A DNA stretch of 33,467 nt, from NCBI GenBank assembly GCA_023246725.1, contig JAHFHV010000005.1, forward strand, positions 1 to 33,467, given 5' to 3'. Below are positions 10,853 through 28,263 of this stretch, in pieces (within the stretch, counting starts at the first letter, position 1; the number at the start of each line of letters is the position of its first letter). A program made the translations under genes and the position numbers. Below the pieces are notes generated by a model. The model searched no databases and was not told the origin of the DNA. It saw only the letters and a list, made by a program, of their open reading frames with translations. The stretch comes from Candidatus Magasanikiibacteriota bacterium (GTDB taxonomy: Bacteria > Patescibacteriota > Patescibacteriia > Magasanikbacterales > GWA2-37-8).

Positions 10853-10927
10853 AATTATTATAATGATAACAAAAAAAAGCCGTTTTGTCTAACAACAAAC
10901 GGCCTTATCTAACGGCACCAACCGCGT

Positions 10928-12798: not shown

Positions 12799-12837
12799 AC
12801 CCCTTCCACTGTCCTCCCCCTAAGAGGGGGAGGAGCC
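12799..12837. repeat. Half copy of the CCCTCC-family element
   Basis: ACCCCTTCCACTGTCCTCCCCCTAAGAGGGGGAGGAG closely matches 4371-4405 inside mpl. Confidence 0.8.
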
Positions 12838-12857
12838 AAGACAACCAAATAAATACA

Positions 12858-12888
12858 CAAAACCCCCAGCGGATGCCGGGGGTTTCGT
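12858..12888 (+). terminator. Probable intrinsic terminator hairpin
   Basis: AAACCCCCAGC-GGAT-GCCGGGGGTTT between convergent genes. Confidence 0.55.
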
Positions 12889-13107
12889 ATTATCATCTGA
12901 AACTATCCAAACCTTTGATGATGTAAGGCGAGAGAAAGAACGTGATAGTTTCATATGAACTTCGGGGGACGGCGGATATGGCCGCCGTCCCCCTCTATAC
13001 TGTCTAGAGCCACGCTTCAGGTGTGTATGACATCCTTAGCGCGAGCCCTTGTGCTCGTTTTTGGCGAGGGGATGAACTTCCCCTTGTTCCCGCGCGGCTA
13101 CGGGAAC

Positions 13108-15399
13108 CTACTGCAGGAGGTCGCACAGGTAGTTGGGGAAACCACCCAGGCAGGCGAACTTGCAGCCCATCTCGAGGGGGGTCTTCCCCTGGAAGATGGT
13201 GTGCGGGTCGAACGCCTCGCGCATGTTGGCGCACCAGTCCCCTCCCTTGGGGAGGTTGGGGTCCGGACGCCAGTCGCCCACCACGAGCCACACGATGTTC
13301 TCGGCGGGATACGACTGGACGTTGAACGCCACCTTCTCGAGGGTCGACACGCACCAGGAGAGGATCTGTCCGATCGACACCCACGGACCGTTGGGGATGC
13401 CCTTGCCGAGTCCGTTGTCCGGCCCCTTGGAACCCTGGAACTGCCAGCCCGTCTTGACCACGAGGGTCTTCTGGTTCTGGCAGGCCTGCTGGACCTGGCA
13501 CGCGCCGTTGACGCACGCCTGTCCCTGCTGGCACACCTTGCCGCACCCCCCACAGTTCGAGGTGTCGGTGTTGGTGTTGACGCAGACATTACCGCACTGC
13601 GTCAGGTTCCCGCATCCGGCGTTGGTGCACAAGCCGTACACGCACATCTGTCCCTGCTGGCAGGCGAACCCGCACTTGCCGCAGTTCTTGGTGTCGGTCC
13701 CCATGTTGACCTCGCACCCGTCCGCCGCCACCTTGTTGCAGTTCGCGAAGCCGAAGTCGCACGTGTCGACGTCACACGTGCTGTTGACGCACTTCGAATC
13801 CGCCTTGAACAGCTGACAGGCCTTGCCGCAGGCCCCGCAGTTCAAGACGTCGCTCGTGGTGGTCACTTCGCAACCGTCCTTGGGAGACAGGTTGCAGTCC
13901 GCGAAGCCGGCGTTGCAAGCGCCGATGCCACAGCTTCCGCTGAGGCACGCCCTGGTTCCGTTCGCAACCGCGGGGCAGGTATTGCCACACTGCCCGCAGT
14001 GGGTGAGGTTGGTGGCGGTGTTGACCTCGCAGCCGTCGCCGAACAGGTTGTTGCAGTCCTGGAACTTCCCGAAGCAGCCCCAGATCTTGCAGCTCCCGCT
14101 CGAGCAGTACGGCGTGGCGTTGGCCGCGATGCAGACGATGCCGCACCCACCGCAGTTCATGGTTTCGTTGTTGATGTCGACGCACGCCCCGTTGCAGAAC
14201 TTGCGGTTCTGCTGGGCGCACCCGACACACACGCCGCCCTGGCAGACCATGTTCGGTGCGCAGGCCTTGTTGCAGCCGCCGCAGTTGAACTGGTCGGTCT
14301 GCTTGTCCACGCACCCCTGGAGGCCGCAGACATCCTGACCCGGGAGGCACGCGTTGGCGCACTTCCCGTTCACGCAGAACAGCCCCTTGGCCGCGCACGA
14401 ATTGCCGCAGCCCCCGCAGTTTCGCCCATCGGTCTGGACATCCGTGCACGAACCGCTGCAGTTCGTCTCGCCCGGCTTGCAGGCGGGGAAACACGAGAAG
14501 AAGGAGCAGACGCTCCCCTGCGGACAGGCGTTGCTGCAACCGCCGCAGTTCTTCCCATCGGAGGAGATGTCCGTGCAGACGTTGCCGCCGCAGTCCTTGA
14601 GACCCTGGTTGAGGTCGCAGAACTTCGGCTGCGCCTGCGACAGGTCGCCGCCGCCCTGGTTCCCCGAGAGATCGACCGCGCCTCCGAGGAGGTCGGCCGC
14701 CATCCCGCCATCGGCGCCCTGGTTGTTCGCCAGGTCCGCCGGGGTGGCGAGATCGGGGTTCATCGTGAGGTCCGCCGCCTGCGCCAGGTCAGGCATGACC
14801 GGCTTGGCGCACACGCCCATGAGGCAGGCGAGGCCGTTGGCGCAGTCGCCGTCGGCGTTGCACGGCTTGCCGTTGCCGCAGCCCTTGCAGGGACCGCCGC
14901 AGTCGGTGTCCGTTTCCCCGCCGTTCTTCACCCCGTCCGTGCAGGTCGGCGGCAGATTGGCGCATGCGCCCGCCACGCACTTCTGCGTGTTGGGATCACA
15001 CACCGTGCCGCACGCCCCGCAGTGGGCCGGGTCCAGCTGGAGATTGGTGCAGACGCCGTTGCAGGCCGTCTGCCCGAGGGGGCAGGAGAACAGGTCGGCC
15101 TCGGGGATGAGGTCGGGCGGGACGGCGACATCCGCCGCCGGCGCCACCGCCAGGTCGGCGGGGCTGATCGGCGTCGCGAGATCGGCCGGCGGCGCGACCC
15201 TGCTGAGGTCGGCGATGTCCGCGACGCACGCGTTGTTGCGGCACACCAGGCTCGGCGAGTGGCAGTCCTCATCGACCGTGCACACGCTGTTCTGGCAGCC
15301 GAGGTTGAAGATCGTCATGAGGCAGACGACCACCGCCGGCGCGAACCACTTCGCGGCCAAGTTCTCCACCACCATGGTGGACTTCCGGTTCCTGTCCAT
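13108..15399 (-). CDS. High-GC cysteine-rich repeat lipoprotein (Stig1-like/myxobacterial-type TDxxNCGxCGxxC repeats)
   Basis: SD AAAGGAG 5 nt before ATG; hydrophobic segment ending NLG-C; about ten CGxCxxxC repeat units, a CTDGVKNGGETDTDCGG unit and P/A-DL linkers; strong G/C third-position bias. Confidence 0.85.
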   Translation of the reverse strand: MDRNRKSTMVVENLAAKWFAPAVVVCLMTIFNLGCQNSVCTVDEDCHSPSLVCRNNACVADIADLSRVAPPADLATPISPADLAVAPAADVAVPPDLIPEADLFSCPLGQTACNGVCTNLQLDPAHCGACGTVCDPNTQKCVAGACANLPPTCTDGVKNGGETDTDCGGPCKGCGNGKPCNADGDCANGLACLMGVCAKPVMPDLAQAADLTMNPDLATPADLANNQGADGGMAADLLGGAVDLSGNQGGGDLSQAQPKFCDLNQGLKDCGGNVCTDISSDGKNCGGCSNACPQGSVCSFFSCFPACKPGETNCSGSCTDVQTDGRNCGGCGNSCAAKGLFCVNGKCANACLPGQDVCGLQGCVDKQTDQFNCGGCNKACAPNMVCQGGVCVGCAQQNRKFCNGACVDINNETMNCGGCGIVCIAANATPYCSSGSCKIWGCFGKFQDCNNLFGDGCEVNTATNLTHCGQCGNTCPAVANGTRACLSGSCGIGACNAGFADCNLSPKDGCEVTTTSDVLNCGACGKACQLFKADSKCVNSTCDVDTCDFGFANCNKVAADGCEVNMGTDTKNCGKCGFACQQGQMCVYGLCTNAGCGNLTQCGNVCVNTNTDTSNCGGCGKVCQQGQACVNGACQVQQACQNQKTLVVKTGWQFQGSKGPDNGLGKGIPNGPWVSIGQILSWCVSTLEKVAFNVQSYPAENIVWLVVGDWRPDPNLPKGGDWCANMREAFDPHTIFQGKTPLEMGCKFACLGGFPNYLCDLLQ

Positions 15400-15850
15400 G
15401 TGAACTCCTTTGAAAAAGCCTTTGCCCGTGCAGGGCTATGCTGATTGATCCAGAAGGAAAATTCCCACCGGCAGCATTCCCCACACGGGGGATTTTCCGT
15501 ATAATCATACCCTTGCACGGAACTAAACCGTAAAAAAATTATGGCCTAATTTCGTGCAAGGGTTATTGGATATTTTTTAAATTGTCAACGAACTATTTTT
15601 AAATCATCAATCAACTTTTACCTTTAACTTTTCAACTTTCAGCTTAATTGATTAATGATCCGTTTGACACTCCCTTAATTATAAAGAGAGGGTCAAATGG
15701 GTGTCGCAGTGTTGGCGCGACCCCCCAGCATGCTCGCTCTTTGTAGAACGAAAGGTTGCCACTGGGACGCCTCGAACGAGGCATCCGAATCAGTAGACCA
15801 TGCTGGCCAGTCGCTGGAACTCCATGGGGAGGTGCGACTGGAGTGAGAGA

Positions 15851-17704
15851 CTACCGAAGCGGGATCTCCTGCCCGATCCACAGCGCGCACTCCGCGTTGG
15901 CGAAGCCGCTCTGGGGGGGTTGGGTCATCCACCCGCCGCCACAGCCCATCTGTAAAAAGAAGTGCTGGGCGCCTGTTCGCTGGCTCGAGATGCCCGGGTA
16001 GAACCGGACTCCCATGCCGACGTTCGTCGACCGCCGAACCAGGACGTCACCGACGTCCGGTCGCTGGAGCTGGGCTTCCAGCCCGACGGTAAAGGTGAGG
16101 AGAATCATGACCGCCTTGTGCACACGATACCCAGCCCCTAGATCGATCGCGAACACGATCTCCTTCTTCCGGCCGTTCGTGCCCACCACGCCGCTCCCGC
16201 CAAAGTACCACTTGTGGCCGAGCTCGAACCCCATCCCCATACCGCCTGCGACTACGAATTCGTCCGAGAGGTGGAGGATGAAGGCCCGGTTCCACCACGA
16301 CTTCGCAATGACGTCGAGGGTGATGTGCACGTAGTTCTCGGAAAGCGGCAGCGGGTTGCAATCCGTGTGGTAGAGCCAGAGGTTCTTCTCCTTGGTAGGA
16401 TAGGGACACATCTGACAATCCACATGATCCCAAGAAAGGTGGGCGGCACCCTTGTATTGACAGAACTTCGGCGCCTCCTTGCACTGCCCGTCAGTGCAAA
16501 TGAGACCGACTTCGCAGTCCGTTTCCACCTTGCAGTGGTCGAACTGCTGGCAACGATTCTTGCAGATCTTGCCGCCGCAGTCCACGTCGGTCTCGTCCTG
16601 GTTCTGAAGCTTGTCGGTGCAGGTAAGATCCGGCGGGGGGGGCGGGAGAGGGCGGAAGAACAGACTGCGGGGAACCTCGCTGGCGCTCCCGAATCCCTCG
16701 ATCGAGCTTTCAGCGTCCGGACCACACAGCGGGGGCAACCCGTCGTGCGGCACGAGCGCTTCACAGCGTGATGTCGTGAGACCCTTTTGAACCCTCTTCG
16801 CCTTGAGAGGATCCTTGGTGCACTCGTGATCGGCATCCTTGATGCAGTCGCCCGGGTCACGGACGATGACACCGTAGCCGGCGGAAGCGCGAGGGTGGCC
16901 GGCGGGCACGTGCTCGCCGGGTGAAACCTTGGGCCAGATCTCCTTTCCGATGGGGGGAGGAGGCACCATCACCGCCTGCCAGTGGCGCAGGCGGCACTGC
17001 TTCACGCCACCATTCTTCTCGCAGTACCCAATGCCGTTCAGATCCTTGGGGCACTCCTCCGGCTTCGTGCAAGTGTCGCCTTCCTTGAGGGAGGGCGGCA
17101 CCGGTACCGCCGGAGGGGGCGCCGGAGCCGACTTGCGCGAAGCGGCCGGGGGCGGCGGAGGCGGTACGGGCGGTGGGGCCACCGCCGGCTGAACGAGCGG
17201 AGGCGGCGGAGGGGGGGGCGGATCAGCCGGAGGCGAAGAGATCACGAGCGTCTGGCAAACATTGTTCTTGCAGACGCCGGACTGACAGTCAATGGAGACC
17301 CTGCACGTCCTTCCATCGGCGCACAGGGGGCACTTGTTGAATTCCCAACCACCACAATCAATGTCCGTCTCGTCGCCGTTCTTGATGTCATCCTGGCAGG
17401 TACCCATCTCGATCGGTTCGACGGGCTCGCTTGCCGGGGCCGCACACACTCCCTTGGCATTGCACTCCAGGCCCTGGTTGCAGTCCTTGGCGCGCTCGCA
17501 GCCCTGACCCTTGCGGCACGGCTGGCAGTTGCTGGTCACGCCGCCGCAGTCCACGTCGGTCTCGTGGTTGTTCTTGATGCCGTCGGTGCAGGTCTCGAGC
17601 GTGCTCTTGACTGCGACGGCCGGGCCGTCGGCGCGCGCGCTGAGCGTGCCGAGCGAGAGGACGACGAACAGGGTGACGAACCAGAACTTCGAGGTCTTGT
17701 TCAT
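15851..17704 (-). CDS. High-GC secreted Cys/Pro-rich protein with possible C-terminal beta-barrel-like domain
   Basis: SD AAGGAG 7 nt before ATG 17704 (MNKTSKFW..., signal peptide ending ARA); three CxDxxxNxxETDxDCGG units; poly-Pro linkers; C-terminal Gly/aromatic amphipathic strands. Confidence 0.8.
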   Translation of the reverse strand: MNKTSKFWFVTLFVVLSLGTLSARADGPAVAVKSTLETCTDGIKNNHETDVDCGGVTSNCQPCRKGQGCERAKDCNQGLECNAKGVCAAPASEPVEPIEMGTCQDDIKNGDETDIDCGGWEFNKCPLCADGRTCRVSIDCQSGVCKNNVCQTLVISSPPADPPPPPPPPLVQPAVAPPPVPPPPPPAASRKSAPAPPPAVPVPPSLKEGDTCTKPEECPKDLNGIGYCEKNGGVKQCRLRHWQAVMVPPPPIGKEIWPKVSPGEHVPAGHPRASAGYGVIVRDPGDCIKDADHECTKDPLKAKRVQKGLTTSRCEALVPHDGLPPLCGPDAESSIEGFGSASEVPRSLFFRPLPPPPPDLTCTDKLQNQDETDVDCGGKICKNRCQQFDHCKVETDCEVGLICTDGQCKEAPKFCQYKGAAHLSWDHVDCQMCPYPTKEKNLWLYHTDCNPLPLSENYVHITLDVIAKSWWNRAFILHLSDEFVVAGGMGMGFELGHKWYFGGSGVVGTNGRKKEIVFAIDLGAGYRVHKAVMILLTFTVGLEAQLQRPDVGDVLVRRSTNVGMGVRFYPGISSQRTGAQHFFLQMGCGGGWMTQPPQSGFANAECALWIGQEIPLR

Positions 17705-17971
17705 GATGTGACTCCTTCGTGGTGTTCGAGAAAAACTCTCCACACAACAAAATCACGAACTCACCATTGAGCCGATCATTTGCCGCGCGGTATCGTCACG
17801 TTTAACTTTTTTTAGTAGTCTCTTGTTTAGTACCCAGCTAAGGCTAATTGGGTACAGGTTTAAAGAGCATGCCCCGTAAGACTCGTTAGAGTTCTGCGGG
17901 AAACTAATGGCCTTAGATTAAACGGCGAAACATTTTCGCCATTTGGTCTAAAGACATCTGGCTTTAAAGCA

Positions 17972-18057
17972 AGACCTCTCTTCCCGTTCTCTTCTTTGCG
18001 AAGGAGAGAAGGAATCGCGACCCTCTCCTCAGCAGAGGAGAGGGCAGGGAGAGGTTT
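17972..18057. repeat. 86-bp CCCTCTCC-family twin-hairpin element, copy 1
   Basis: AGACCTCTC...GGGAGAGGTTT with two internal hairpins; 3 mismatches to 18361-18446. Confidence 0.92.
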
Positions 18058-18185
18058 CGTGGATTTAAAAATCCAACAAAAAACTCTCGTTGAGAGAGCT
18101 TGGCATTTTTTAGCTAATCTGTGGTGGATATTGGCTCTCTCAAAGCACTATCCCACACCTATACACTATACAAATTTAATAGGTC

Positions 18186-18214
18186 ATACTAGCACTAAAC
18201 CCAATTTCTGTCAA
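18186..18214 (-). promoter_or_regulatory. Sigma70-type promoter for the Cys-rich gene
   Basis: Minus strand TTGACA-17 nt-TAGTAT with TGn extension. Confidence 0.55.
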
Positions 18215-18273
18215 GCGATTTTAGGAACTTTTAGGCAACTTTATAGCAATGGCGTTATTTTGGCTAACTATAA

Positions 18274-18301
18274 ACAAAAAACCCTTATCTTAAAATAAGG
18301 G
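18274..18301 (-). terminator. Possible intrinsic terminator
   Basis: CCCTTAT/ATAAGGG stem followed by a T-rich tract on the minus strand. Confidence 0.4.
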
Positions 18302-18360
18302 AAAATAATGTTCAATCACCTGGTAGTGACAGGTCTGGGCCGGTCACTTCACGGCCAGCG

Positions 18361-18446
18361 AGACCTCTCTTCCCGTTCTCTCCTTTGCAAAGGAGAGAAG
18401 GAATCGCGACCCTCTCCTCAGCAGAGGAGAGGGCAGGGAGAGGTCT
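18361..18446. repeat. 86-bp CCCTCTCC-family twin-hairpin element, copy 2
   Basis: AGACCTCTC...GAGAGGTCT terminal IR; direct repeat of 17972-18057. Confidence 0.92.
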
Positions 18447-18456
18447 GTCCGCTCAC

Positions 18457-19050
18457 CTACGTTCTTTTATAATACACTAGCCACAGTACAGCCAAAACCA
18501 TGCCGGCCAAAAGGCCGCCCAGGGTATTGAATATCACATTTGGCCGCCTGAGCCACGGCGAAAGCAAGGGATTATCCACCACTTTAAAAGCAATATCCCC
18601 GCCCACGTAATCGCCGCCTTGCGCCGCCATGGTTTCGGTAACAGCCCGGGCTAAGGCGAGCGAGTCTTGTGAAGTGAAACTATACGTCGTAATTTTTAAA
18701 AGACTGGTGCCGCCCACCACCGTGGCGTTCACATCCCTATTCCACAGTTTGCGCCGGTCACGGTCATTAAGCCTGTTCCAACGAGCCTTATTAAAGGTAA
18801 ACGAACTCGCCATTACTTTATGAAAAAAATCATCGGTCTTAAGCACCTGCACTAAATTGCTGCCAACTTGCTCGGCGCTTTTGGCTTGGGTGTACGGGTC
18901 CACCCCGCTCCGGTCGCGCGATATGATGAGGACCGCGCTTTCCGCGCCATAGGAGGCTGGTAAAACCAAACTAACAACGGCGATTAAAATGGCGACCACT
19001 ACTCCCCAGCCAATGATAAGAGCAAGATGTTTGCGTAAAATAGTGCCCAT
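18457..19050 (-). CDS. Wzz/CpsC-like polysaccharide chain-length determinant family protein
   Basis: N-terminal TM followed by PASYGAESAVLI; C-terminal KVVDNP...RPN and TM. Confidence 0.7.
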   Translation of the reverse strand: MGTILRKHLALIIGWGVVVAILIAVVSLVLPASYGAESAVLIISRDRSGVDPYTQAKSAEQVGSNLVQVLKTDDFFHKVMASSFTFNKARWNRLNDRDRRKLWNRDVNATVVGGTSLLKITTYSFTSQDSLALARAVTETMAAQGGDYVGGDIAFKVVDNPLLSPWLRRPNVIFNTLGGLLAGMVLAVLWLVYYKRT

Positions 19051-19142
19051 AGATTGTTAAGATTAAAAGATTGAAAGATTAAAAGATTGGAGCGAAACAA
19101 TTTCCAACAATCTTTTTTCAGTATAGCATAAACGCTATTTCA

Positions 19143-20231: not shown

Positions 20232-20247
20232 AATTAAAAATTTCAAA

Positions 20248-21045
20248 TTACTTCCACCTCACTACAAACAAAATATATATCACAAGGAGGAGCCCGTTGA
20301 TAATCACAAACGGCAATTGTTTTTTAAAATTCAGTCCTCCGGGCGACAAATAAAATCGGCCCATCAGCCACAGCACATACCACCACCAAGTTAACATTAA
20401 ACTGCCCGCAAAATTGCCGATTGATGAAAATAAAACTACCAAGCTGGCTTCCCACAAAAGTATAGCGGATAACCCTAAAAATAACAGCGCGCGGCGCGTT
20501 AGGGGCACTTCATACCGCCGCCACCAAAAACCGCTTAATAGCGTGGGCAGAATTGTGGCCACTGCCGGCAGCCACCAATTAAACCAGGGTACGAGTTGAA
20601 ATACAAATAAGGCCAAAAGACCGCTCCAGATTCCCGCCACCGCCATAACAGTCATGAGGAGGCCGATACGACGATACGGTTTAAGCTCAAACGATAATTC
20701 CCTACTACCAGGAGGAATGAGCCAATACAAAAACGACGGGGACAGGACGCTGACTACGGCCAAGAGATGCCAGGCCACGCTCCAGTCGGTAAATAATACT
20801 AACGGCAAAAGCCCGGCCTCAAAGACCGCTAAAACCAAGACATGCTGCCAGGGGTTTATACTGGGCGGAAAATAAGCGAAACCATAAGCTAACACACTCG
20901 ACAACGCCAAACGAGCCAGGAGCAAAATCGCCAGCCCGGATAGATTGGTTACGCGCTTAAGCAACCAAAAAAATATCAAACCAAAAATAAGCTCGGCGGC
21001 GGCGGCTAGTTTAGGGTGAAGTGAAATTTTTTTGGAAAAAGCCAT
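20248..21045 (-). CDS. Multi-pass membrane hypothetical protein
   Basis: About eight or nine hydrophobic segments; start set at ATG 21045 (MAFSKK). Confidence 0.75.
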   Translation of the reverse strand: MAFSKKISLHPKLAAAAELIFGLIFFWLLKRVTNLSGLAILLLARLALSSVLAYGFAYFPPSINPWQHVLVLAVFEAGLLPLVLFTDWSVAWHLLAVVSVLSPSFLYWLIPPGSRELSFELKPYRRIGLLMTVMAVAGIWSGLLALFVFQLVPWFNWWLPAVATILPTLLSGFWWRRYEVPLTRRALLFLGLSAILLWEASLVVLFSSIGNFAGSLMLTWWWYVLWLMGRFYLSPGGLNFKKQLPFVIINGLLLVIYILFVVRWK

Positions 21046-21109
21046 ACCCAGTTTACCTATACATTCACGAGTGTACCATAGCGCTGTGTAAAAATAAAGA
21101 CCCCGCCCA

Positions 21110-21194
21110 CAGCAACACTTCAACACATCAGCACTACAACACTTAGTGGGGTGTAGCGTTTCGGTGTTGTAGTGTTGTGGTGCTGATGTGTTGT
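21110..21194. repeat. CAACAC/GTGTTG 8-mer-periodic inverted repeat
   Basis: CAACACATCAGCACTACAACACT versus AGTGTTGTGGTGCTGATGTGTTG. Confidence 0.8.
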
Positions 21195-21246
21195 CATGGA
21201 TAATCAGTTGCTTTGGAAAGAAAACAATGGTACCCTAATAATCATT

Positions 21247-21690
21247 ATGCTAAGCCTAGCCCAAAACAAATCCGCCCGCTTTGATTACGATATCCTGGAA
21301 ACCTACGAGGCTGGTTTAGTTTTGTCGGGAGCCGAAACCAAGGCCGTTAAAAACGGACAAATTAATCTCAAGGCTTCGTTTGTCACGTTCCATGGCGGCG
21401 GCGCGCTGTTAACCAACGCGCACATCAGCCCCTACCCATTTGCCAAACAAATCGATTACGACCCAACGCATAGCCGCCCGCTCCTCCTCCACAAAAAAGA
21501 AGTGTCTTATCTTAAAGGCAAATCGCAAGAAGCTGGCTTGACAATTGTGCCCTTAAGCGTGTATACTAAGAACCGCCTCATCAAAGTTGAAATAGCCGTC
21601 GCCCGCGGCCGCAAAGAATACGACAAGCGGGCAGTACTCAAAAAGAGAGATACCGAGAGAGAAATACGTCAGAAATCAGACCGACTCTAG
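21247..21690 (+). CDS. smpB: SsrA-binding protein
   Basis: NKSARFDYDILETYEAGLVLSGAETKA, HISPY, LLLHKKE and ARGRKEYDKR motifs; adjacent to tmRNA. Confidence 0.97.
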   Translation: MLSLAQNKSARFDYDILETYEAGLVLSGAETKAVKNGQINLKASFVTFHGGGALLTNAHISPYPFAKQIDYDPTHSRPLLLHKKEVSYLKGKSQEAGLTIVPLSVYTKNRLIKVEIAVARGRKEYDKRAVLKKRDTEREIRQKSDRL

Positions 21691-21703
21691 AGTGGATACG
21701 TTT

Positions 21704-21830
21704 AAACTCGAAATTCGAAGCACGAAATTCGAAACAAACCCTAATATCAAAAATTCCAATACATTAAAACATTTTGGAATATTTAGATTTTGATATTGTT
21801 TCGTATTTCGGATTTAGAATTTCGGATTTC
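21704..21830. repeat. Heptamer-based (CGAAATT/ATTTCG) inverted repeat element
   Basis: CGAAATTCGAAGCACGAAATTCGAAACAA...TTGTTTCGTATTTCGGATTTAGAATTTCGGATTT. Confidence 0.8.
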
Positions 21831-21837
21831 ACAACTT

Positions 21838-22256
21838 GGGAGTGATCGGTTTCGACAGGAGCGACTCTTGTTATCTGCATACCGAGGCGGCCCCGGCCTC
21901 GTTAATCCAGGGGGCAACTTATAAGTGCCAACTTATATCAAAAGGCAGTAGTTGCCGTTCGCGATTTCGTGAATGGTTTCGCCTTGGCTCCGGCCCTGGC
22001 CTAACAAACGGCTACTGTTTCCCGGAATCTTTAGATACCGGGCATCGCGCTGGCCAGACTTCGTAGCCAACCGCGGTGTCACTCACGAAGTGTAGAGTGC
22101 GCGTACCGCTAGTTGCGCGCCTTCGAAAGCAATACTTAGCTCGACTCTGATTATTTCGTTAGCTCTAAGGTCAGAGTTTAAAATATCAAGCTGGCTATGT
22201 ATGTAGACGGTAACGGCAGCGACTCTTGGACGCGAGTTCGATTCTCGCCACTTCCA
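21838..22256 (+). ncRNA. ssrA: tmRNA
   Basis: 5' GGGAGTGATCGGTTTCGAC pairs with 3' CACTTCC-A (G3:U wobble); T-arm GCGAG-TTCGATT-CTCGC; tag frame 21927-22004 reads ANLYQKAVVAVRDFVNGFALAPALA*. Confidence 0.95.
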
Positions 22257-22270
22257 CTCGACCCAACATA

Positions 22271-22378
22271 ATCCGAATCTGCAAATCTTTATCCGAATCT
22301 ACGAAAATCCTAATACAGCGAATGGCCATTGGTAGATTCGTATATTTGTAGATTCGGCTTGCATTCGTGGATTCGGAT
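22271..22378. repeat. ATCCGAATC/GATTCGGAT inverted and tandem repeat element
   Basis: ATCCGAATCT twice on the left; GTAGATTCG twice and GATTCGGAT on the right. Confidence 0.75.
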
Positions 22379-22393
22379 TACATTATTTGTAGT

Positions 22394-22939
22394 ATGAGAA
22401 TTACTCACCGCCGCAAAAAAGAAGAGCCAAAAAAAAACTACCGCTATAACGAAGCCATTACGGCCCCGGAAGTTTTGGTGCTTGGAAAAACCGGGGAAAA
22501 TTTGGGCGTCATGAAAATTAGGGAGGCCATTGACATGGCCCGTGAATTAGGTTTAGACTTGGTGGAAATAAACCCTCTTACCGCGCCGCCGGTAGCTAAA
22601 ATTATTGACTTTGGGCAACTGCGCTACAGTCAGGAAAAAGAAGCGCGCCTGGCCAAAGCGCGCCAGCACGTGGTAGACATTAAGGGCGTGCGCCTCTCGC
22701 TCCGCATCGGACCGCACGATTTAGGCATTCGCCGCAACCAAACCATTAAGTTTTTAGACGGCGGCGATAAAGTGAAAATTGAAATTATTTTGCGCGGACG
22801 CGAACAGGCCCAGGGGCCCATGGCTGTGGAACTGGTGAAAAATTTCATTGCCTCGGTTAACGCGTTGGTGCCAATTAGAACCGAGCAGACGGTGGAACGC
22901 AACGCGAATAAAGTTACGGCGATCATCACCAAGGCCTAA
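22394..22939 (+). CDS. infC: Translation initiation factor IF-3
   Basis: NEAITAPEV, GLDLVEI, PPVAKIIDFG and GDKVKIEIILRGRE motifs; start probably ATG 22394. Confidence 0.96.
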   Translation: MRITHRRKKEEPKKNYRYNEAITAPEVLVLGKTGENLGVMKIREAIDMARELGLDLVEINPLTAPPVAKIIDFGQLRYSQEKEARLAKARQHVVDIKGVRLSLRIGPHDLGIRRNQTIKFLDGGDKVKIEIILRGREQAQGPMAVELVKNFIASVNALVPIRTEQTVERNANKVTAIITKA

Positions 22940-23020
22940 AATTCAAACAGATTTTGTGAGGATTCAAACTGATTAATCGAATCGGTCTAAATCTTCAACT
23001 AATCTGTCTAAATCATACAT

Positions 23021-23215
23021 ATGCCTAAGCTTAAGACCCACCAAGCCACCGCCAAGCGCTTTAAGCGCACCAAAACCGGCAAAATTTTAAAGCGCACCGC
23101 CGGCCAAAATCATTTTAACGCGCGCGAAAGCGGCAAAGTCGGCCGCAACAAAAAAATTGATCTGGTAATGAGTAAAACCCTCAACCACGTCATGGCCGTT
23201 AACTTACCAAACTAA
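23021..23215 (+). CDS. rpmI: 50S ribosomal protein L35
   Basis: MPKLKTHQATAKRFKRTKTGKI; infC-rpmI-rplT synteny. Confidence 0.97.
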   Translation: MPKLKTHQATAKRFKRTKTGKILKRTAGQNHFNARESGKVGRNKKIDLVMSKTLNHVMAVNLPN

Positions 23216-23285
23216 GCACACGAGACACGATACACACAGAACGATACAAAATATTTGTTTAATATTTGTTTAATATCTTTTCAAT

Positions 23286-23630
23286 ATGACAAGAATTAAA
23301 GGTGGTCTCCTCCACGCCAAACGCCGCCGCGGCATACTAAAACATACCCGTGGTTTCCGCTGGGGGCGCAAATCAAAAATTAAAGTGGCCAAAGTGGCTA
23401 AAATGAAAGCCGGCCAACACGCGTTTAATTCGCGCAAAACCAAAAAACGCCTTAACCGCGGGCTGTGGAACGTTAAAATTAACGCCGCCGCCCGTGAAGT
23501 TGGCGTTTCTTACAGCAAGCTTATCGGCCTCCTTAAAAAGAAAAATATCGGTTTGGACCGAAAAATTTTGGCATCTCTTGGAGAAAAACGCGAAGCCATT
23601 TTCCGCCATCTGGTAAGCCTGGCCAAGTAA
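23286..23630 (+). CDS. rplT: 50S ribosomal protein L20
   Basis: MTRIKGG, LWNVKINAAAR, SYSKLI and LDRKILA motifs. Confidence 0.97.
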   Translation: MTRIKGGLLHAKRRRGILKHTRGFRWGRKSKIKVAKVAKMKAGQHAFNSRKTKKRLNRGLWNVKINAAAREVGVSYSKLIGLLKKKNIGLDRKILASLGEKREAIFRHLVSLAK

Positions 23631-23678
23631 CTACCTGCCCCGTACCGATGGAGCGTGGCGACATTTGATGCGTGGGTC

Positions 23679-23726
23679 TTATCCACACCGTGAATAGTTG
23701 ACAGTAACCAGGAAACGTGCTATACT
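23679..23726 (+). promoter_or_regulatory. DnaA box followed by a sigma70 promoter
   Basis: TTATCCACA at 23679-23687; TTGACA (23698)-17 nt-TATACT (23721). Confidence 0.7.
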
Positions 23727-23732
23727 CAAAAA

Positions 23733-23820
23733 AATACAGACCCTGAGTGTGTCTGGTACCTGGGAGAAACGCCCCCTCCTTCGTTTCTTTCCTTGTGCCA
23801 GACGCACCCAGGGTCTTTTT
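23733..23820 (+). ncRNA. Putative small hairpin RNA with CCCCCUCCUU loop
   Basis: Consensus promoter, a ~33-bp imperfect stem with G:U pairs on the + strand (23738-23816), a U-tract, and no ORF. Confidence 0.6.
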
Positions 23821-23834
23821 GTTAACGGCCTACA

Positions 23835-23864
23835 TTGACAATTGCTTTATGGTTACTGTATAAT
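23835..23864 (+). promoter_or_regulatory. tRNA promoter
   Basis: TTGACA-18 nt-TATAAT upstream of tRNA-Asp. Confidence 0.75.
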
Positions 23865-23902
23865 GAGACAAGTAAATTTTGGGATAGTTTAAAAAATAAT
23901 TT

Positions 23903-23976
23903 GGGACGGTAGTTCAACTGGTTAGAGCACTGCCCTGTCACGGCAGAAGTTGCGGGTTCGAGTCCCGTCCGTCCCG
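23903..23976 (+). tRNA. tRNA-Asp(GTC)
   Basis: Acceptor GGGACGG/CCGTCCC, anticodon arm CTGCC-CTGTCAC-GGCAG, T-loop TTCGAGT, discriminator G; CCA not encoded. Confidence 0.97.
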
Positions 23977-23979
23977 CCG

Positions 23980-24011
23980 AATTCTCTCCCCCAACGAGAG
24001 AATTTTTATTT
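23980..24011. terminator. Terminator-like hairpin between tRNA and the convergent M23 gene
   Basis: AATTCTCTC-loop-GAGAGAATT followed by a T-rich tract. Confidence 0.55.
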
Positions 24012-24671
24012 TAAAAACTCACCAAAATCCAGCCACTCATTAAGCTCGCTTTTGGTTGACGCGTAGCCGCGAATATTCATGGCTTTGCCTTTGTGGATTC
24101 CCAAATGCAAATGCTTTCTCTCGCCGTCGGTTTCCGAACTATTTCCTTCGCCTAAAATTCCAATGTGTTCTTCGACTTTAAGCTGGTCTCCAAGTTTAGT
24201 TAAAATACTCGCGAGGTTAAGATGTCCATACACAACGGTGATCGGCTCTCCCTGAAACTCGCAAAATTGAACCAGCATGCCGCCGTACCCGCTTACGGAG
24301 CCTTTGCGGAGAATCGTTCCGGAACAGATCGCGTTTATGCTAACAGAAGCGTCTTGTTCGCCTGAAAAAATTTCAAAATCAACGCCCGTATGATAACCAC
24401 GGAAGCGTTCCGGCTGGACTGGCGAATTCTGCGGGGAAACAAAGATCCCAAAAAATTTTTTGGTCACCCGCTCTTTGGCGCGGTCAATCGGCATAAAAAA
24501 TGCCGCGACGCTGGACGAAACAGCCGGAAGAGCGGTGGCCGGCTTCTCCGCGCCGCTTGTGGTGGTTGCGCTGCCAGAAAACGGCGTGACAATTGTGCCG
24601 CATCCCGCCAGACTACAAAGTACTCCCGTTGCCAAAAATACAAAACTATAATTATACAATAAAGGCTTCAT
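24006..24671 (-). CDS. M23 family metallopeptidase, putative lipoprotein
   Basis: LAGC lipobox; HTGVD, GYG, YGHL and HLH motifs. Confidence 0.9.
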   Translation of the reverse strand: MKPLLYNYSFVFLATGVLCSLAGCGTIVTPFSGSATTTSGAEKPATALPAVSSSVAAFFMPIDRAKERVTKKFFGIFVSPQNSPVQPERFRGYHTGVDFEIFSGEQDASVSINAICSGTILRKGSVSGYGGMLVQFCEFQGEPITVVYGHLNLASILTKLGDQLKVEEHIGILGEGNSSETDGERKHLHLGIHKGKAMNIRGYASTKSELNEWLDFGEFLK

Positions 24672-24831
24672 AAAATAATCCTAAACAATGGCTTTAGGCC
24701 CATACGGACAGTATATCACAAACTGGATCTTTACAAATTATGGTGAATAAGCTACACTTATTTTAATAATACGCGGCCTATATCCGCGTCCCGCAATTGC
24801 GGGATCCGCGTATATCCGCTTCTATAAATAT

Positions 24832-25320
24832 ATGGCCATAAAAATTTTCGTCACCGGCGGATCATTTGATAAAGAATACGATGAGATTGAAGAAAAGCTC
24901 TTGTTTAAAGATACCCGCATTCCGGAAATTTTAAAACGATCTAGGTGTGGCGTGGAAGTAGATATCCGCACCCTTATGCTAGTAGACAGCCTAGACATAA
25001 CCTTTGCCGACCGCGCGGTGATTGTGGAAAATTGCAAAAACGCCAAAGAGGATAAAATTATTATTACCCACGGCACTTCTACCATGTCCGAAACTGCCAA
25101 AGCAATCGGCCAAGCTAAGCTGGAAAATAAAACAATTGTGCTCACTGGCGCCATGATTCCGTACAAACTTGGCAAGTCCGACGCGATGTTTAACCTCGGC
25201 ACCGCCCTGGCGTTTGTGCAAGCTTTGCCCCCCGGCGTGTACGTGGCCATGAATGGCCGTTGCTTTAATTGGTACAATGTAAAAAAGAATGAAAAACTGG
25301 GAGTATTTGAAGAATTATAA
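24832..25320 (+). CDS. Short asparaginase-domain protein
   Basis: TGGSFDK, DSLD, ITHGTSTM, VLTGAM and SDAMFNL motifs; N-terminal domain only. Confidence 0.88.
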   Translation: MAIKIFVTGGSFDKEYDEIEEKLLFKDTRIPEILKRSRCGVEVDIRTLMLVDSLDITFADRAVIVENCKNAKEDKIIITHGTSTMSETAKAIGQAKLENKTIVLTGAMIPYKLGKSDAMFNLGTALAFVQALPPGVYVAMNGRCFNWYNVKKNEKLGVFEEL

Positions 25321-25344
25321 TCAAGCAAAAATAATTACTAGCGC

Positions 25345-25367
25345 ATCGCTCACCGAGCGATTTTTTT
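25345..25367 (+). terminator. Intrinsic terminator
   Basis: ATCGCTC-ACC-GAGCGAT followed by a T run. Confidence 0.7.
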
Positions 25368-25388
25368 AAACATGCGGCGGGGCGCGGA

Positions 25389-25417
25389 TTGACAAAACCT
25401 TGTCTTTGTACTATGCT
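25389..25417 (+). promoter_or_regulatory. Sigma70-type promoter of the high-GC small-gene cassette
   Basis: TTGACA-17 nt-TATGCT, followed by TGTTCTTTAC (boxA-like) at 25425. Confidence 0.65.
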
Positions 25418-25524
25418 ACCGCGTTGTTCTTTACTATTTCTGCCGTTGTACCGCTTAGTGAATGCTATAGTTAACTAAGCGGCGAAACGGCAGAACCCCA
25501 ACCCCTCTGCCGGGAAAGGAAACC

Positions 25525-25743
25525 TTGGACACGAAGCCCTGGTATACGCGCGCCGCACTCTGGTTCATCATCGGCACCGGTCGCGCGATTCTCAACGTCT
25601 TCATCGTGCTGTGGTGGATCGCGGCGCTCTGTGCTCTCGCCATCCCTCACCCTGTGGGGCCTGCGATCACAGCGATGATGCTGGGCAGCTATTTCCTCAT
25701 CCGCGCCGCCGCGCGCGGGTTCTTCCCGCCCGGTAGATCCTGA
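25525..25743 (+). CDS. High-GC small membrane protein (72 aa)
   Basis: AAAGGA before a TTG start; two hydrophobic segments; TTC/ATC/GC3-biased codons. Confidence 0.65.
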   Translation: MDTKPWYTRAALWFIIGTGRAILNVFIVLWWIAALCALAIPHPVGPAITAMMLGSYFLIRAAARGFFPPGRS

Positions 25744-25784
25744 CCACCGCTCCACGCTCACTGACCCGCCACAAGGAGGGCGAC

Positions 25785-25958
25785 ATGAAGATATTGCGAG
25801 AAATCAGGATTGGGTTCCAGCGGATGAGCCACGCCTGGTTCGTGGTCATCGGCGCCGGATTCGGCGCCGGATTCGCCGCGACCCCGGCCTGGGGTCTCGC
25901 GACGGGCGCCGCCTTCGCGGCGCTGTTCGCCTGGGCCTACAGCAACGAAGCGCGCTAG
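25785..25958 (+). CDS. High-GC small membrane protein (57 aa), absent from the ORF track
   Basis: SD AAGGAGG before ATG; translates MKILREIRIGFQRMSHAWFVVIGAGFGAGFAATPAWGLATGAAFAALFAWAYSNEAR*; GC3 bias; hairpin GCGCGCTAGC/GCTAGCGCGC at the 3' end. Confidence 0.7.
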   Translation: MKILREIRIGFQRMSHAWFVVIGAGFGAGFAATPAWGLATGAAFAALFAWAYSNEAR

Positions 25959-25989
25959 CTTTCCTTTAGAGGGGGCTAGCGCGCACCCC

Positions 25990-28263
<2,274 letters not shown>

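What the first reader, a model, noticed from the sequence alone, without database searches (positions are those of the whole stretch)
12960..25985. High-GC, SD-bearing genes in a genome whose own genes lack SD sites: possible host-adapted or host-directed cassettes
Seen: four genes (13108-15399, 15851-17704, 25525-25743, 25785-25958) have G/C-ending codons (sampled lines roughly 63% GC or more) and AAGGA(G) sites before the start. Native genes such as rpmI, rplT, cysS, mraY and smpB have AT-rich leaders without SD. All four encode secreted or membrane proteins, contain none of the repeat elements, and sit behind AT-rich upstream regions with no integrase or transposase. Known: CPR are host-dependent episymbionts, and such Cys-rich repeats are typical of myxobacteria. 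Inference (speculative): either horizontal acquisition from a high-GC host, or genes kept tuned for a host's translation machinery, for example delivered as mRNA or DNA.
Basis: partly seen in the sequence, partly recalled or inferred. Interest (0 to 1): 0.85.

Follow-up and report, generated by a model that had tools for sequence, protein, structure and literature searches.

The report
Foreign-style high-GC genes in CPR genome
About 7% of the genes of this tiny groundwater bacterium, including four in this window, are GC-rich imports that keep a classical ribosome-binding site, while its own genes start translation by a different signal, a U just before AUG.

Summary
In this 1.16 Mb CPR genome (Magasanikbacteria-like by tool labels), my own crude gene caller finds two classes. 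Native: 902 genes with GC3 about 0.52, no Shine-Dalgarno (SD) enrichment, and T at position -1 of ATG in 552 of 651. H class: 74 gene-sized GC-rich units with GC3 0.68-0.96; 63 of 74 have a strong SD, and 1 of those 63 has T at -1. The 16S anti-SD is intact.

Relatives G001, G020 and G101 (same family) show the same two classes. G396, from another family, does not.

H genes are accessory: 10 of 74 have a homolog in the same-genus genome, against 525 of 902 native genes. They sit in turnover hotspots and have a GC-type amino-acid composition. Where named relatives exist, they are Myxococcales-like. Independent contigs bridge the junctions, so this is not a chimera.

Best reading: genes acquired horizontally from GC-rich, SD-using diderm bacteria, possibly the host lineage. 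Four syntenic H pairs shared with G001 kept their SD, and three of them stayed more GC-rich than simple amelioration predicts. That hints at maintenance.

Nothing supports delivery of these genes to a host. A bS21-like gene with an extended SD suggests Bacteroidia-like gating of SD-led translation; this is untested.

The parts
13108..15399 (-). H-class gene 1. It encodes a 763-aa protein with an N-terminal hydrophobic segment, rich in cysteine-repeat modules (12% Cys). GC is 0.67 and GC3 0.92.
   Evidence: ORF and translation. Pfam Stig1: 84.9 bits (cut-off 24.1), 6 stretches. NCBIfam NF041328 MXAN_6577-like: 187.2 bits (cut-off 100). GC3. The single relative in species-representative genomes is a 'delta proteobacterium' MAG at 42% identity.
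15405..15410 (-). Shine-Dalgarno AAGGAG, 5 nt upstream of the ATG at 15399. Position -1 is C.
   Evidence: Read from the sequence.
12855..12890 (-). Terminator-like hairpin (16-pair stem followed by a T run), about 220 nt downstream of the gene 1 stop. A GC-rich 3' tail lies between the stop and this hairpin.
   Evidence: One search found 10 terminator-like sites in 12800-18200 against 5.6 expected. This is a consensus match only; function is inferred.
15420..15850 (.). AT-rich spacer between the two large H genes. It holds one promoter-like site on the - strand, GCGACA-18-TATAAT at 15707-15678.
   Evidence: One promoter-like site was found against 1.0 expected by chance, so this is weak evidence.
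15851..17704 (-). H-class gene 2. It encodes a 617-aa protein with a signal-peptide-like N-terminus, three Cys-rich 'ETDVDCGG' modules, proline-rich linkers and a C-terminal strand-rich domain. GC is 0.64 and GC3 0.80.
   Evidence: ORF. No Pfam or NCBIfam family. The best database relative has 45% identity over 69% of the length. Most other hits share only the repeat modules, and many of these are named Myxococcales or Myxococcota. The AlphaFold model has mean pLDDT 55; the Cys modules reach 85-93, and strands at residues 470-570 have low confidence.
17712..17717 (-). Shine-Dalgarno AAGGAG, 7 nt upstream of the ATG at 17704. Position -1 is C.
   Evidence: Read from the sequence.
25389..25417 (+). 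Promoter-like site TTGACA-17-TATGCT, upstream of the mini-gene pair.
   Evidence: One search found 3 sites against 0.5 expected. A TTGACAAAA box lies at the matching place in the G001 slot.
25438..25495 (+). Long leader hairpin in the 5' UTR of the mini-gene pair.
   Evidence: RNA fold of 25415-25535: -42.1 kcal/mol, z = -4.15, 0 of 200 shuffles as stable. A similar stem sequence is present in the G001 slot. No Rfam family reaches its gathering score.
25525..25743 (+). H-class gene 3. It encodes a 72-aa hydrophobic mini-protein with a TTG start preceded by AAAGGAA. GC3 is 0.81.
   Evidence: No family found. The matching slot in G001 holds a different 79-aa hydrophobic H gene with no detectable similarity (E = 12).
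25785..25958 (+). H-class gene 4. It encodes a 57-aa hydrophobic mini-protein with an ATG start preceded by AAGGAGG. GC3 is 0.86.
   Evidence: No family found.

Best explanation
The four genes belong to a genome-wide class of about 74 'H' genes in this genome. Similar classes occur in at least three other genomes of the same CPR family.

These are horizontally acquired accessory genes from GC-rich, SD-using, probably diderm bacteria. Where relatives carry names they are Myxococcales-like, so the donor may be the host lineage.

Each survives as a gene-sized unit: a short foreign 5' UTR with a strong SD, a GC-rich ORF, and about 60 nt of GC-rich 3' tail. Each sits behind an AT-rich region that often carries a TTGACA/TATAAT-type promoter.

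Native genes of this lineage start translation without SD, using AT-rich leaders and a U at position -1 of AUG. That U is expected to pair with A37 of the initiator tRNA. The imported genes lack this context, so they stay dependent on SD pairing with the intact anti-SD.

What is shown: the two classes, the boundaries of the units, the patchy distribution and slot turnover, and the signs of foreign origin. What is inferred: who the donor was, that the SD sites are actually used, and why GC3 stays high.
For: 1. Two classes.
- GC3 is bimodal.
- Strong SD is present in 63 of 74 H genes against 11% of 902 native genes.
- T at -1 of ATG occurs in 552 of 651 native genes, 973 of 4317 internal ATGs, and 1 of 63 SD-led H starts.

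2. Units are gene-sized.
- Mean GC rises about 40 nt before the start and falls about 60-70 nt after the stop.
- There are 50 single genes, 9 pairs and 3-gene runs twice.

3. H genes are accessory.
- 10 of 74 H genes against 525 of 902 native genes have a homolog in the 82% of same-genus G001 that I sampled.
- The same slots hold different H genes in the two genomes.

4. Foreign signature.
- R/(R+K) is 0.61 against 0.42, and GARP residues are 0.306 against 0.254.
- 20 of 74 H genes are followed by another SD plus a start codon, in about ten cases with a short ORF of under 40 codons.

5. Donor hints.
- NF041328 MXAN_6577-like for gene 1.
- Myxococcales or Myxococcota names among the relatives of gene 2.
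- The H-class acyl-CoA desaturase is 61% identical to a Myxococcales MAG protein.
- The H-class OmpA/TPR protein matches the C-terminal part of the myxobacterial TraB model (144.5 bits).
- The H class also includes OmpA-type envelope proteins.

6. A vehicle exists in the family.
- G020 carries a 56-kb high-GC island with a serine recombinase, two tyrosine integrases, a TrwB/HerA-like ATPase, a sigma-54 activator, type I R-M genes and an rve transposase.

7. Not an assembly artefact.
- Logan contigs from two runs cover 12807-13929 and 13994-18030 (or 14169-18008) with 0-2 differences.
- Depth covaries with the flanks.
- The same two-class pattern appears in independent assemblies, including single-contig G020.
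Against: - No close donor was found. The best relatives are 42-64% identical. One tested ORFan (443 aa) had no match in 151 genomes of the phylum of the 'delta proteobacterium' MAG.
- The C43:142-762 family has only CPR-labelled relatives.
- Four H genes are syntenic between G000 and G001. By G<->C changes at 4-fold sites they are as old as the native genes (0.34 against 0.33). Three of the four still keep synonymous GC at 0.83-0.98, where a simple neutral model allows at most about 0.76. Plain recent transfer with passive amelioration does not explain them.
- In G000 no recombinase is associated with the cassettes, and H genes are not enriched next to tRNA genes (6 of 74 against 63 of 902 within 500 bp).
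- Only 20 of the 74 H proteins were scanned against Pfam, and only three were searched in the large protein database.
Confidence: 0.7

Rival explanations
1. A maintained, specially translated regulon. This is compatible with a foreign origin. Selection keeps both the SD and the GC-rich body. Most ribosomes would be SD-blind, as in Bacteroidia where bS21, bS18 and bS6 sequester the anti-SD. SD-led H mRNAs would then be read mainly by ribosomes with an exposed anti-SD, so the level of bS21 would gate a set of accessory, partly envelope or host-contact genes.
For: - Native genes lack SD although the anti-SD is intact.
- The bS21-like gene at G000:C20:6301-6543 is a low-GC gene with an extended SD, GAGGTGA, 5 nt before a GTG start.
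- In Flavobacteriales, rpsU carries an extended SD and ribosomes lacking bS21 translate it better. I read this in the abstract starts of PMC9976891, PMC13000453 and PMC7797042 as listed.
- Three of four syntenic H pairs stay GC-rich, with S<->W differences at 4-fold sites of 0.10-0.23 against 0.39 for native genes, at an equal G<->C divergence.
- One H family is known only from CPR and is a GC island in a different slot in a third genus, G008.
- SD is kept and a -1 U was not gained in old H genes.
Against: - The bS21 assignment is below both curated cut-offs (24.9 against 27 bits; 21.8 against 28.95 bits).
- No expression data exist.
- The fourth syntenic pair, OmpA/TPR, behaves as expected for neutral amelioration (synonymous GC 0.71/0.76, S/W 0.36).
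- The neutral model assumes native synonymous sites are neutral, yet native codon use is clearly structured.
- Only 294 4-fold sites in six pairs were available.
- H-gene functions are heterogeneous.
Confidence: 0.2
2. Host-directed genes. The genes are kept in host-style code because they are expressed inside a GC-rich host after transfer of DNA or mRNA.
For: - H genes carry SD and codon use typical of GC-rich bacteria, and some persist through speciation.
- Several encode diderm-type envelope proteins, which are odd for a CPR cell.
Against: - No transfer apparatus, border repeats or clustering are linked to the cassettes in G000. They are scattered over many contigs.
- Their promoter-like sites resemble those upstream of native genes.
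- The organism's own 16S keeps the anti-SD.
- Many H proteins are small, cytoplasmic-looking ORFans.
- I know of no precedent in bacteria-to-bacteria symbiosis (recalled, not searched specifically).
Confidence: 0.02
3. An artefact: chimeric assembly or binning of GC-rich fragments from another organism into CPR contigs.
For: - Many GC-rich stretches lie at contig ends.
- In the window, the public contigs break at repeat elements on both sides of the large H block, at 12807-12835 and 18026-18060.
Against: - Contigs from two runs join the AT-rich native-type spacers to both H genes, and their depth tracks the flanks.
- H genes lie between native genes in G000, G001, G008, G101 and single-contig G020.
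- Four H genes are syntenic in two independent assemblies, with conserved promoter and UTR sequence.
Confidence: 0.02
4. Native fast-evolving genes made GC-rich in place, for example by GC-biased gene conversion at recombination hotspots or by targeted mutagenesis. No foreign origin is involved.
For: - Syntenic H orthologs are far more diverged in protein sequence (31-66%) than their flanking genes (62-89%).
- GC enrichment covers the transcribed unit only.
- Some families are CPR-only.
Against: - This does not explain the strong SD, the missing -1 U, the diderm-type domains, the Myxococcales-like relatives or the 56-kb mobile island in G020.
- G and C are both enriched at third positions, with no strand asymmetry visible in the 4-fold tables.
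Confidence: 0.05

Closest known systems
Compositionally atypical horizontally transferred genes and 'morons' (amelioration framework of Lawrence and Ochman; recalled, not read here)
   Same: Gene-sized units with foreign GC and codon use and their own transcription signals. They are patchy among close relatives and located in turnover hotspots.
   Different: Here the foreign class also differs from the native class in its translation-initiation signal (SD against U(-1)AUG). It recurs across a whole CPR family. At least three syntenic members stayed GC-rich across a species split at which native 4-fold sites are only 40% identical.
Bacteroidia-type SD-blind translation with rpsU autoregulation (PMC7797042, PMC9976891, PMC13000453; abstract starts seen in the listing)
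   Same: Genome-wide lack of SD despite a conserved anti-SD, and a bS21-like gene that carries an extended SD.
   Different: A different phylum. The native signal here is a U at -1, in 79-88% of ATG starts across six genomes, where the abstract of PMC13000457 names upstream adenines for Bacteroidia. About 7% of genes carry a strong SD, where the abstract of PMC13000453 says one gene does in F. johnsoniae. Sequestration of the anti-SD is untested here.
Quadruplet pairing of initiator tRNA A37 with U at mRNA position -1 (PMC10018350; passages read)
   Same: It gives a mechanism by which U at -1 favours initiation.
   Different: In E. coli the effect is a modest modulation. Here U(-1) is nearly universal in native genes and nearly absent from H genes. 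I did not check position 37 of this organism's initiator tRNA.
Integron gene cassettes
   Same: Single-ORF units of foreign composition with structured 3' ends, and variable content in a given slot.
   Different: There is no array and no adjacent integrase. The two PF00589 hits lie elsewhere and are probably Xer-type. The cassettes have their own promoter-like sites and SD. No shared attC-like site was established; only a few recurring 3' motifs were seen by eye.
Myxobacterial cysteine-rich surface proteins (NCBIfam NF041328 MXAN_6577-like; Pfam Stig1) and the 'ETDVDCGG'-module proteins of Myxococcota
   Same: Gene 1 passes both curated cut-offs. Gene 2 shares its repeat modules with hundreds of proteins, many of them named Myxococcales or Myxococcota.
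   Different: They are encoded in a CPR genome. Best identities are only 42-45%. The C-terminal domains have few relatives.

Membership tests
Horizontally acquired xenologs (genomic islets) | Composition and codon use unlike the resident genome | tested here: met
   GC3 is 0.68-0.96 against a native mode of 0.52. Lys AAG is 0.80 against 0.23, and Ile ATC is 0.84 against 0.18.
Horizontally acquired xenologs (genomic islets) | Patchy presence among close relatives | tested here: met
   10 of 74 H genes against 525 of 902 native genes have a homolog in G001, of which 82% was sampled. Gene 2 had only repeat-module matches in 8 of 40 relatives.
Horizontally acquired xenologs (genomic islets) | Closest relatives in another lineage (donor identified) | tested here: inconclusive
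   Named relatives are Myxococcales-like at 42-64% identity for 3 genes. One family is CPR-only. One ORFan had no hit in 151 genomes of the candidate donor phylum. No trees were built.
Horizontally acquired xenologs (genomic islets) | Linked mobility genes | tested here: not met
   None in the window. G000's recombinases are low-GC and not adjacent, with one possible exception near the C11 cluster. The feature is met only for the 56-kb island of G020.
NCBIfam NF041328 MXAN_6577-like cysteine-rich protein (gene 1) | Score above the curated cut-off | tested here: met
   187.2 bits against a cut-off of 100, in 4 stretches.
Pfam PF04885 Stig1 (gene 1) | Score above the gathering threshold | tested here: met
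   84.9 bits against 24.1, in 6 stretches.
Bacteroidia-like SD-blind ribosome system | Native genes lack SD while 16S keeps CCUCC | tested here: met
Bacteroidia-like SD-blind ribosome system | rpsU (bS21) carries an extended SD | tested here: inconclusive
   GAGGTGA lies 5 nt before the GTG start of an 81-aa ORF. The bS21 match is below the cut-off in Pfam (24.9 against 27) and in TIGR00030 (21.8 against 28.95).
Bacteroidia-like SD-blind ribosome system | Anti-SD sequestered by bS21, bS18 and bS6 | not testable with these tools
   This needs a ribosome structure or biochemistry.
Integron cassette array | IntI integrase with attI and an array of attC-bounded cassettes | tested here: not met
   50 of 61 H runs are single genes. 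There are only two PF00589 hits in the genome, neither next to an H cluster.
NCBIfam NF033763 outer membrane exchange protein TraB (H gene C4:25692-26744, outside the window) | Score above the curated cut-off over the full length | tested here: not met
   144.5 bits against a cut-off of 700. Only profile positions 313-501 of 522 are matched.

The most novel reading that the evidence does not exclude
This CPR family runs two translation-initiation channels. Native mRNAs use U(-1)AUG without SD, on ribosomes whose anti-SD is masked. A regulon of GC-rich xenologs of myxobacterial type (about 7% of genes, partly envelope or host-contact proteins) is read only when the anti-SD is exposed, for example on bS21-free ribosomes. 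Selection therefore preserves both SD and GC-rich coding sequence for as long as species diverge. Under this reading the foreign look of these genes works as a regulatory address label and is more than a leftover of transfer.
Probability: 0.18. Interest if true: 0.85.

Novelty: new variant of a known kind. Interest (0 to 1): 0.7.

Why it matters
- It gives a clean natural case in which resident and acquired genes in one cell carry mutually exclusive start signals.
- That makes three questions testable: how SD-independent lineages express foreign genes, why they keep the anti-SD, and whether amelioration can be held back by selection.
- For CPR biology, it points to a steady inflow of envelope and lipid genes from GC-rich diderm bacteria, possibly the hosts. 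The Myxococcales-like affinities are a concrete lead to the unknown host.
- The near-universal U at -1 in native genes is a strong signal that could improve start-site prediction in these genomes.
- I found no paper describing this pattern. I searched with the term sets. PMC9297842 (passages) reports only that part of Parcubacteria lack the anti-SD motif and often lack bS21.

Tried and rejected
Leads that gave nothing or were set aside:
- A metagenome scan for relatives of gene 2 found nothing. The same scan for the C43:142 family found nothing.
- A genome-collection scan with gene 1 returned one locus only.
- ESM Atlas for gene 2: best score 0.84, below the useful range. The outer-membrane beta-barrel lead is therefore unconfirmed.
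- The structure model of gene 2 has mean pLDDT 55. I judged it too poor for a fold search, so none was run.
- Rfam found nothing for the leader hairpin apart from chance miRNA-hairpin matches below gathering score.
- tRNA-adjacent integration: no enrichment.
- A CAACC(A/G) motif in H leaders: CAACCA occurs in 11 of 74 H leaders against 31 of 902 native ones. This is suggestive but I did not pursue it.
- RAPP-type mini-ORFs after H genes: only about 5 cases have an SD, too few to be a class feature.
- RNA evidence: no RNA holder was listed by the look-up of sequencing runs, so expression is unknown.
- The ORFan C33:39285-40616 had no match in 151 genomes of the phylum of G506. There was no positive control, so this empty answer shows little.
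- Promoter-like sites in 12800-18200 are not above chance (1 found against 1.0 expected).
- The class-level search for the C43:142 family found 0 of 400 other genomes.

Limits of method:
- My gene caller is crude (79% coding). Some H calls may have the wrong strand or start.
- Relatives were only partly sampled: G001 822 kb, G020 and G396 400 kb each, G092 and G101 200 kb each.

Full report
**What is in the window**

A 500-nt composition profile shows three GC-rich blocks: 13001-15500 at 0.63-0.69, 16001-17500 at 0.60-0.66, and 25501-26000 at 0.64. The background is 0.38-0.56.

The blocks coincide with four ORFs:
- 13108-15399(-), 763 aa.
- 15851-17704(-), 617 aa from the SD-led ATG. A longer GTG start at 17743 is possible but has no SD.
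- 25525-25743(+), 72 aa.
- 25785-25958(+), 57 aa.

Their GC3 values are 0.92, 0.80, 0.81 and 0.86. The native genes of the window have GC3 of 0.30-0.62.

Each H gene has an SD at normal spacing: AAGGAG, AAGGAG, AAAGGAA and AAGGAGG.

Gene 1 is a cysteine-repeat protein that passes the curated cut-offs of Pfam Stig1 and of NCBIfam NF041328, 'MXAN_6577-like'. Gene 2 and the two mini-proteins match no family.

**The pattern holds genome-wide**

The window is contig C29 of a 1,157,571-bp, 56-contig genome with a mean GC of 0.475. It has 121 separate stretches with GC >= 0.58.

I wrote a two-model codon-usage gene caller, which called 1011 genes covering 79% of the genome. GC3 is bimodal, with a main mode near 0.52 and a second mode at 0.72-0.96. 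I defined 'H' as genes of at least 60 aa with GC3 >= 0.68 (74 genes) and 'L' as the remaining 902.

- With the longest possible start, an SD motif lies at -18 to -4 in 53 of 902 L genes, with a flat positional profile. It lies there in 42 of 74 H genes, with a peak at -12 to -7.
- Allowing any in-frame start within 40 codons, 63 of 74 H genes have a start with anti-SD duplex energy <= -8 kcal/mol. A control built from internal in-frame starts predicts 26%. For L genes the figure is 11%, against 15.5% predicted.
- The 16S gene is 1971 nt long for 1533 model positions. It ends GGATCACCTCCTTTCT, so the anti-SD is intact.

**Native genes carry a second, independent start signal**

Native ATG starts have T at position -1 in 552 of 651 cases. 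Internal in-frame ATGs have it in 973 of 4317 cases. Among the 63 SD-led H starts, T at -1 occurs once; the others are C 36, G 15 and A 11.

The same native bias appears among ATG-start ORFs of at least 200 aa in five relatives: 0.80 in G001, 0.88 in G020, 0.79 in G396, 0.86 in G092 and 0.82 in G101. High-GC3 ORFs in those genomes show 0.00-0.19.

U at -1 is known to favour initiation by pairing with A37 of the initiator tRNA (PMC10018350, passages read). This signal also shows that my native start calls are mostly right, which strengthens the 'no SD' result.

**Anatomy of the H units**

- Averaged over the 74 genes, GC rises about 40 nt before the start codon. It returns to background about 60-70 nt after the stop.
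- The 80 nt after the stop fold more stably than those after L genes (mean -26.8 against -17.3 kcal/mol).
- H genes occur as 50 singles, 9 pairs and 2 triples.
- A full TTGAC[AT]-N16-18-TANNNT pattern lies within 200 nt upstream of 31 of 74 H genes, against 79 of 902 L genes.
- 20 of 74 H genes are followed within about 130 nt by another SD plus a start codon. In about ten cases this opens only a short ORF of under 40 codons. I read these as remnants of donor operons.
- H proteins are richer in Arg, Pro and Ala and poorer in Lys, Ile and Asn. R/(R+K) is 0.61 against 0.42. The GC bias therefore reaches beyond synonymous sites.
- H proteins are not enriched in signal or TM features.
- Of the 20 largest H proteins outside the window, Pfam recognises an OmpA/TPR/TSP3 protein, a radical SAM/SPASM enzyme, an EamA transporter, a fatty-acid desaturase, two haem-oxygenase-like proteins and a phosphoribosyltransferase. 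It also gives three weak, below-threshold matches (TPR repeats, DUF2231, DUF3810). Ten have no match.

**Not an artefact**

Public contigs of two groundwater runs (X1 may be the source sample; X2 is from the same study) cover 12807-13929 and 13994-18030, or 14169-18008, with 0-2 differences. They join the AT-rich spacers to both large H genes. They break only at high-copy repeat elements, at 12807-12835, 18026-18060 and 18359-18447. Depth tracks the flanks in both runs.

Independent assemblies of relatives show the same thing, as described next.

**Relatives**

| Genome | Relation | Sampled | High-GC3 genes | Strong SD, high vs low class |
|---|---|---|---|---|
| G001 | same genus | 822 kb | 61 of 688 | 76% vs 13% (first 332 kb) |
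| G020 | same family, one contig | first 400 kb | 59 of 325 | 49% vs 14% |
| G101 | same family | 200 kb | 12 of 161 | 42% vs 7% |
| G092 | same family | 200 kb | 4 of 162 | 25% vs 11% |
| G396 | same order, other family, GC 0.32 | 400 kb | 1 of 346 | low class also SD-poor |

Most of G020's high-GC3 genes lie in one 56-kb block at 128.5-184.6 kb. That block encodes a large serine recombinase, two tyrosine integrases, a TrwB/HerA-like ATPase, a sigma-54 activator, a SIR2/ORC-CDC6-like protein, type I restriction-modification genes and an rve transposase. GC-rich mobile DNA therefore does enter these genomes.

Tool labels place the lineage in Magasanikbacteria or Uhrbacteria.

**Turnover**

Only 10 of 74 H genes have a homolog in the sampled G001 genes, against 525 of 902 L genes. 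Nine of the ten best hits are themselves H genes there; one weak hit, at 27% identity, is to a low-GC gene.

Gene 2 has no ortholog in 40 relatives; only its repeat modules match.

Several slots bounded by orthologous native genes hold different H genes in G000 and G001. One of these is the window slot between 24832-25320 and ligA. There G001 has a different 79-aa hydrophobic H gene behind a similar TTGACAAAA box and leader hairpin.

**Origin**

- The named relatives of gene 2 are Myxococcales, Myxococcota, Labilithrix or Sandaracinaceae proteins. Most share only the modules. The best full-length hit has 45% identity over 69% of the length.
- Gene 1's single genome-collection relative is a 'delta proteobacterium' MAG at 42% identity.
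- The H desaturase is 61-64% identical to its best hits, and the best named one is from a Myxococcales MAG.
- The H OmpA/TPR protein matches the C-terminal part of the myxobacterial TraB model, far below its cut-off.
- Against this, the C43:142-762 lipoprotein family has only two relatives in 5.8 billion proteins. Both are labelled CPR. It forms 9 clusters among 1.84 billion representatives.
- One ORFan had no match in 151 genomes of the candidate donor phylum.

**Persistence**

Four H genes are syntenic between G000 and G001:
- C43:142-762;
- C4:25692-26744, the OmpA/TPR protein;
- C24:6202-6396;
- C13:10043-10762.

Their protein identity is 31-66%, while the flanking native genes are at 62-89%. 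For the first pair, the promoter box, a leader hairpin, the SD and a 3' hairpin align between the two genomes.

At 4-fold sites within identical residues, native pairs are 40% identical, where saturation would give 28%. The fraction of G<->C swaps among G/C sites is 0.33 in native pairs and 0.34 (76 of 224) in six H pairs. By that clock the H pairs are as old as the native ones. Strong/weak differences are 0.39 in native pairs, but 0.20 in H pairs overall and 0.10 in the C43 pair.

A two-state neutral model calibrated on native synonymous sites predicts synonymous GC of at most about 0.76 today, even if the ancestor was all-GC. Observed values:

| Pair | Synonymous GC, G000 / G001 |
|---|---|
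| C43 | 0.98 / 0.92 |
| C24 | 0.87 / 0.91 |
| C13 | 0.83 / 0.83 |
| OmpA/TPR | 0.71 / 0.76 |

The OmpA/TPR pair fits amelioration; the other three do not. The sample is small, and the model assumes that native synonymous sites are neutral. I therefore treat maintenance as suggested and not shown.

The C43 family member in a third genus, G008, is again a 700-bp island with GC 0.61-0.67 and GC3 0.81, in a different slot.

**A possible gate**

A low-GC ORF at G000:C20 matches bS21 weakly (24.9 and 21.8 bits, both below cut-off). It is preceded by GAGGTGA, 5 nt before its GTG start.

In Bacteroidia, ribosomes are blind to SD because bS21, bS18 and bS6 sequester the anti-SD. rpsU carries an extended SD there, and ribosomes without bS21 translate it better. 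I read this in the abstract starts of PMC7797042, PMC9976891 and PMC13000453 in the listing. By analogy, the H genes of this CPR could be read mainly by ribosomes with an exposed anti-SD. This is inference only.

PMC9297842 (passages) reports that part of Parcubacteria lack the anti-SD motif and often lack bS21. It does not describe two gene classes.

**Verdict**

The best-supported explanation is repeated horizontal acquisition of single genes or small clusters from GC-rich, SD-using diderm bacteria. The available names point towards Myxococcota. Acquisition is followed by trimming down to gene-sized units.

These genes keep the SD because they lack the native start context. Some appear to be held GC-rich by selection or by a biased process.

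The idea of delivery to a host has no support.

Noticed in passing
Genome-wide. In the window, for example the starts at 5127, 8190(-), 9368(-), 10852(-), 12096(-), 12498, 23021 and 23286.: Native ATG starts have T at position -1 in 552 of 651 genes, against 22.5% of internal ATGs. Five relatives show the same (0.79-0.88), including one from another family. This strong start-context signal is absent from the SD-led H genes (1 of 63).
   Followed up: partly
Window 10927-11020, 17972-18055, 18361-18446, 26884-26923 and 30585-30653. See also 302-404 and 8200-8281.: Several families of short palindromic repeat elements are present 8 to 43 times in the genome (14-mer counts, both strands). Public contigs break at them. 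One copy lies inside the ligA ORF (25990-28260), where the translation shows an odd G/P/R-rich insert. This resembles in-frame palindromic-element insertions known from other small genomes (recalled).
   Followed up: no
G000:C4:21136 (+) and G000:C5:38929 (+); also C54 after 12055 and C46:16478.: Mini-ORFs led by an SD, reading MARAPP*, MRTRAPP*, MARAPPRL... and MPRGPP..., lie directly after H-gene stop codons. R-A-P-P resembles known ribosome-arrest motifs (recalled). There are only about five cases.
   Followed up: partly
G020:C1:128551-184623 (loci L037-L040): A 56-kb contiguous high-GC block in a single-contig relative. It carries a serine recombinase, two tyrosine integrases, a TrwB/HerA-like ATPase, a sigma-54 activator, a SIR2/ORC-CDC6-like defence protein, type I R-M genes and an rve transposase. 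It looks like an integrative, possibly conjugative, element of foreign composition.
   Followed up: partly
G000:C20:6301-6543 (L159:1492-1734): A bS21-like gene (below the family cut-offs) with an extended SD, GAGGTGA, and a GTG start, in a genome whose other native genes lack SD. This is the arrangement described for rpsU in Flavobacteriales.
   Followed up: partly
Window 25438-25495 (+), and G001 locus L100 at about 5600-5680 (-).: A long leader hairpin (fold of 25415-25535: -42.1 kcal/mol, z = -4.15) lies upstream of the mini-gene pair. Similar stem sequence and a similar promoter box occur in the same slot of G001, although the downstream ORFs are not detectably homologous. No Rfam family matches.
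   Followed up: partly
G000:C4:25692-26744 (-) and G001 L082:6235-7257: An H-class TPR/TSP3/OmpA protein, syntenic in two species. Its best NCBIfam match is the C-terminal part of myxobacterial outer-membrane-exchange protein TraB (144.5 bits, cut-off 700). This is a lead to a myxobacterial host or donor.
   Followed up: no
3' tails of G000 C9:12107, C12:3013 and C35:4710 (possibly also C16:11237); and of C4:20720, C44:12187 and C4:47716.: By eye, short motifs of about 20-25 nt recur in the GC-rich 3' tails of unrelated H genes. These could be shared donor-side or recombination-site sequences. They were not tested statistically.
   Followed up: no
G000:C36:7014-8984: The 16S rRNA gene spans 1971 nt for 1533 model positions, so it carries insertions, as is common in CPR.
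   Followed up: no
Window 21838-22259 (+) and 23903-23978 (+): A tmRNA gene (tag peptide ANLYQKAVVAVRDFVNGFALAPALA) and a tRNA-Asp gene. Both are ordinary.
   Followed up: no
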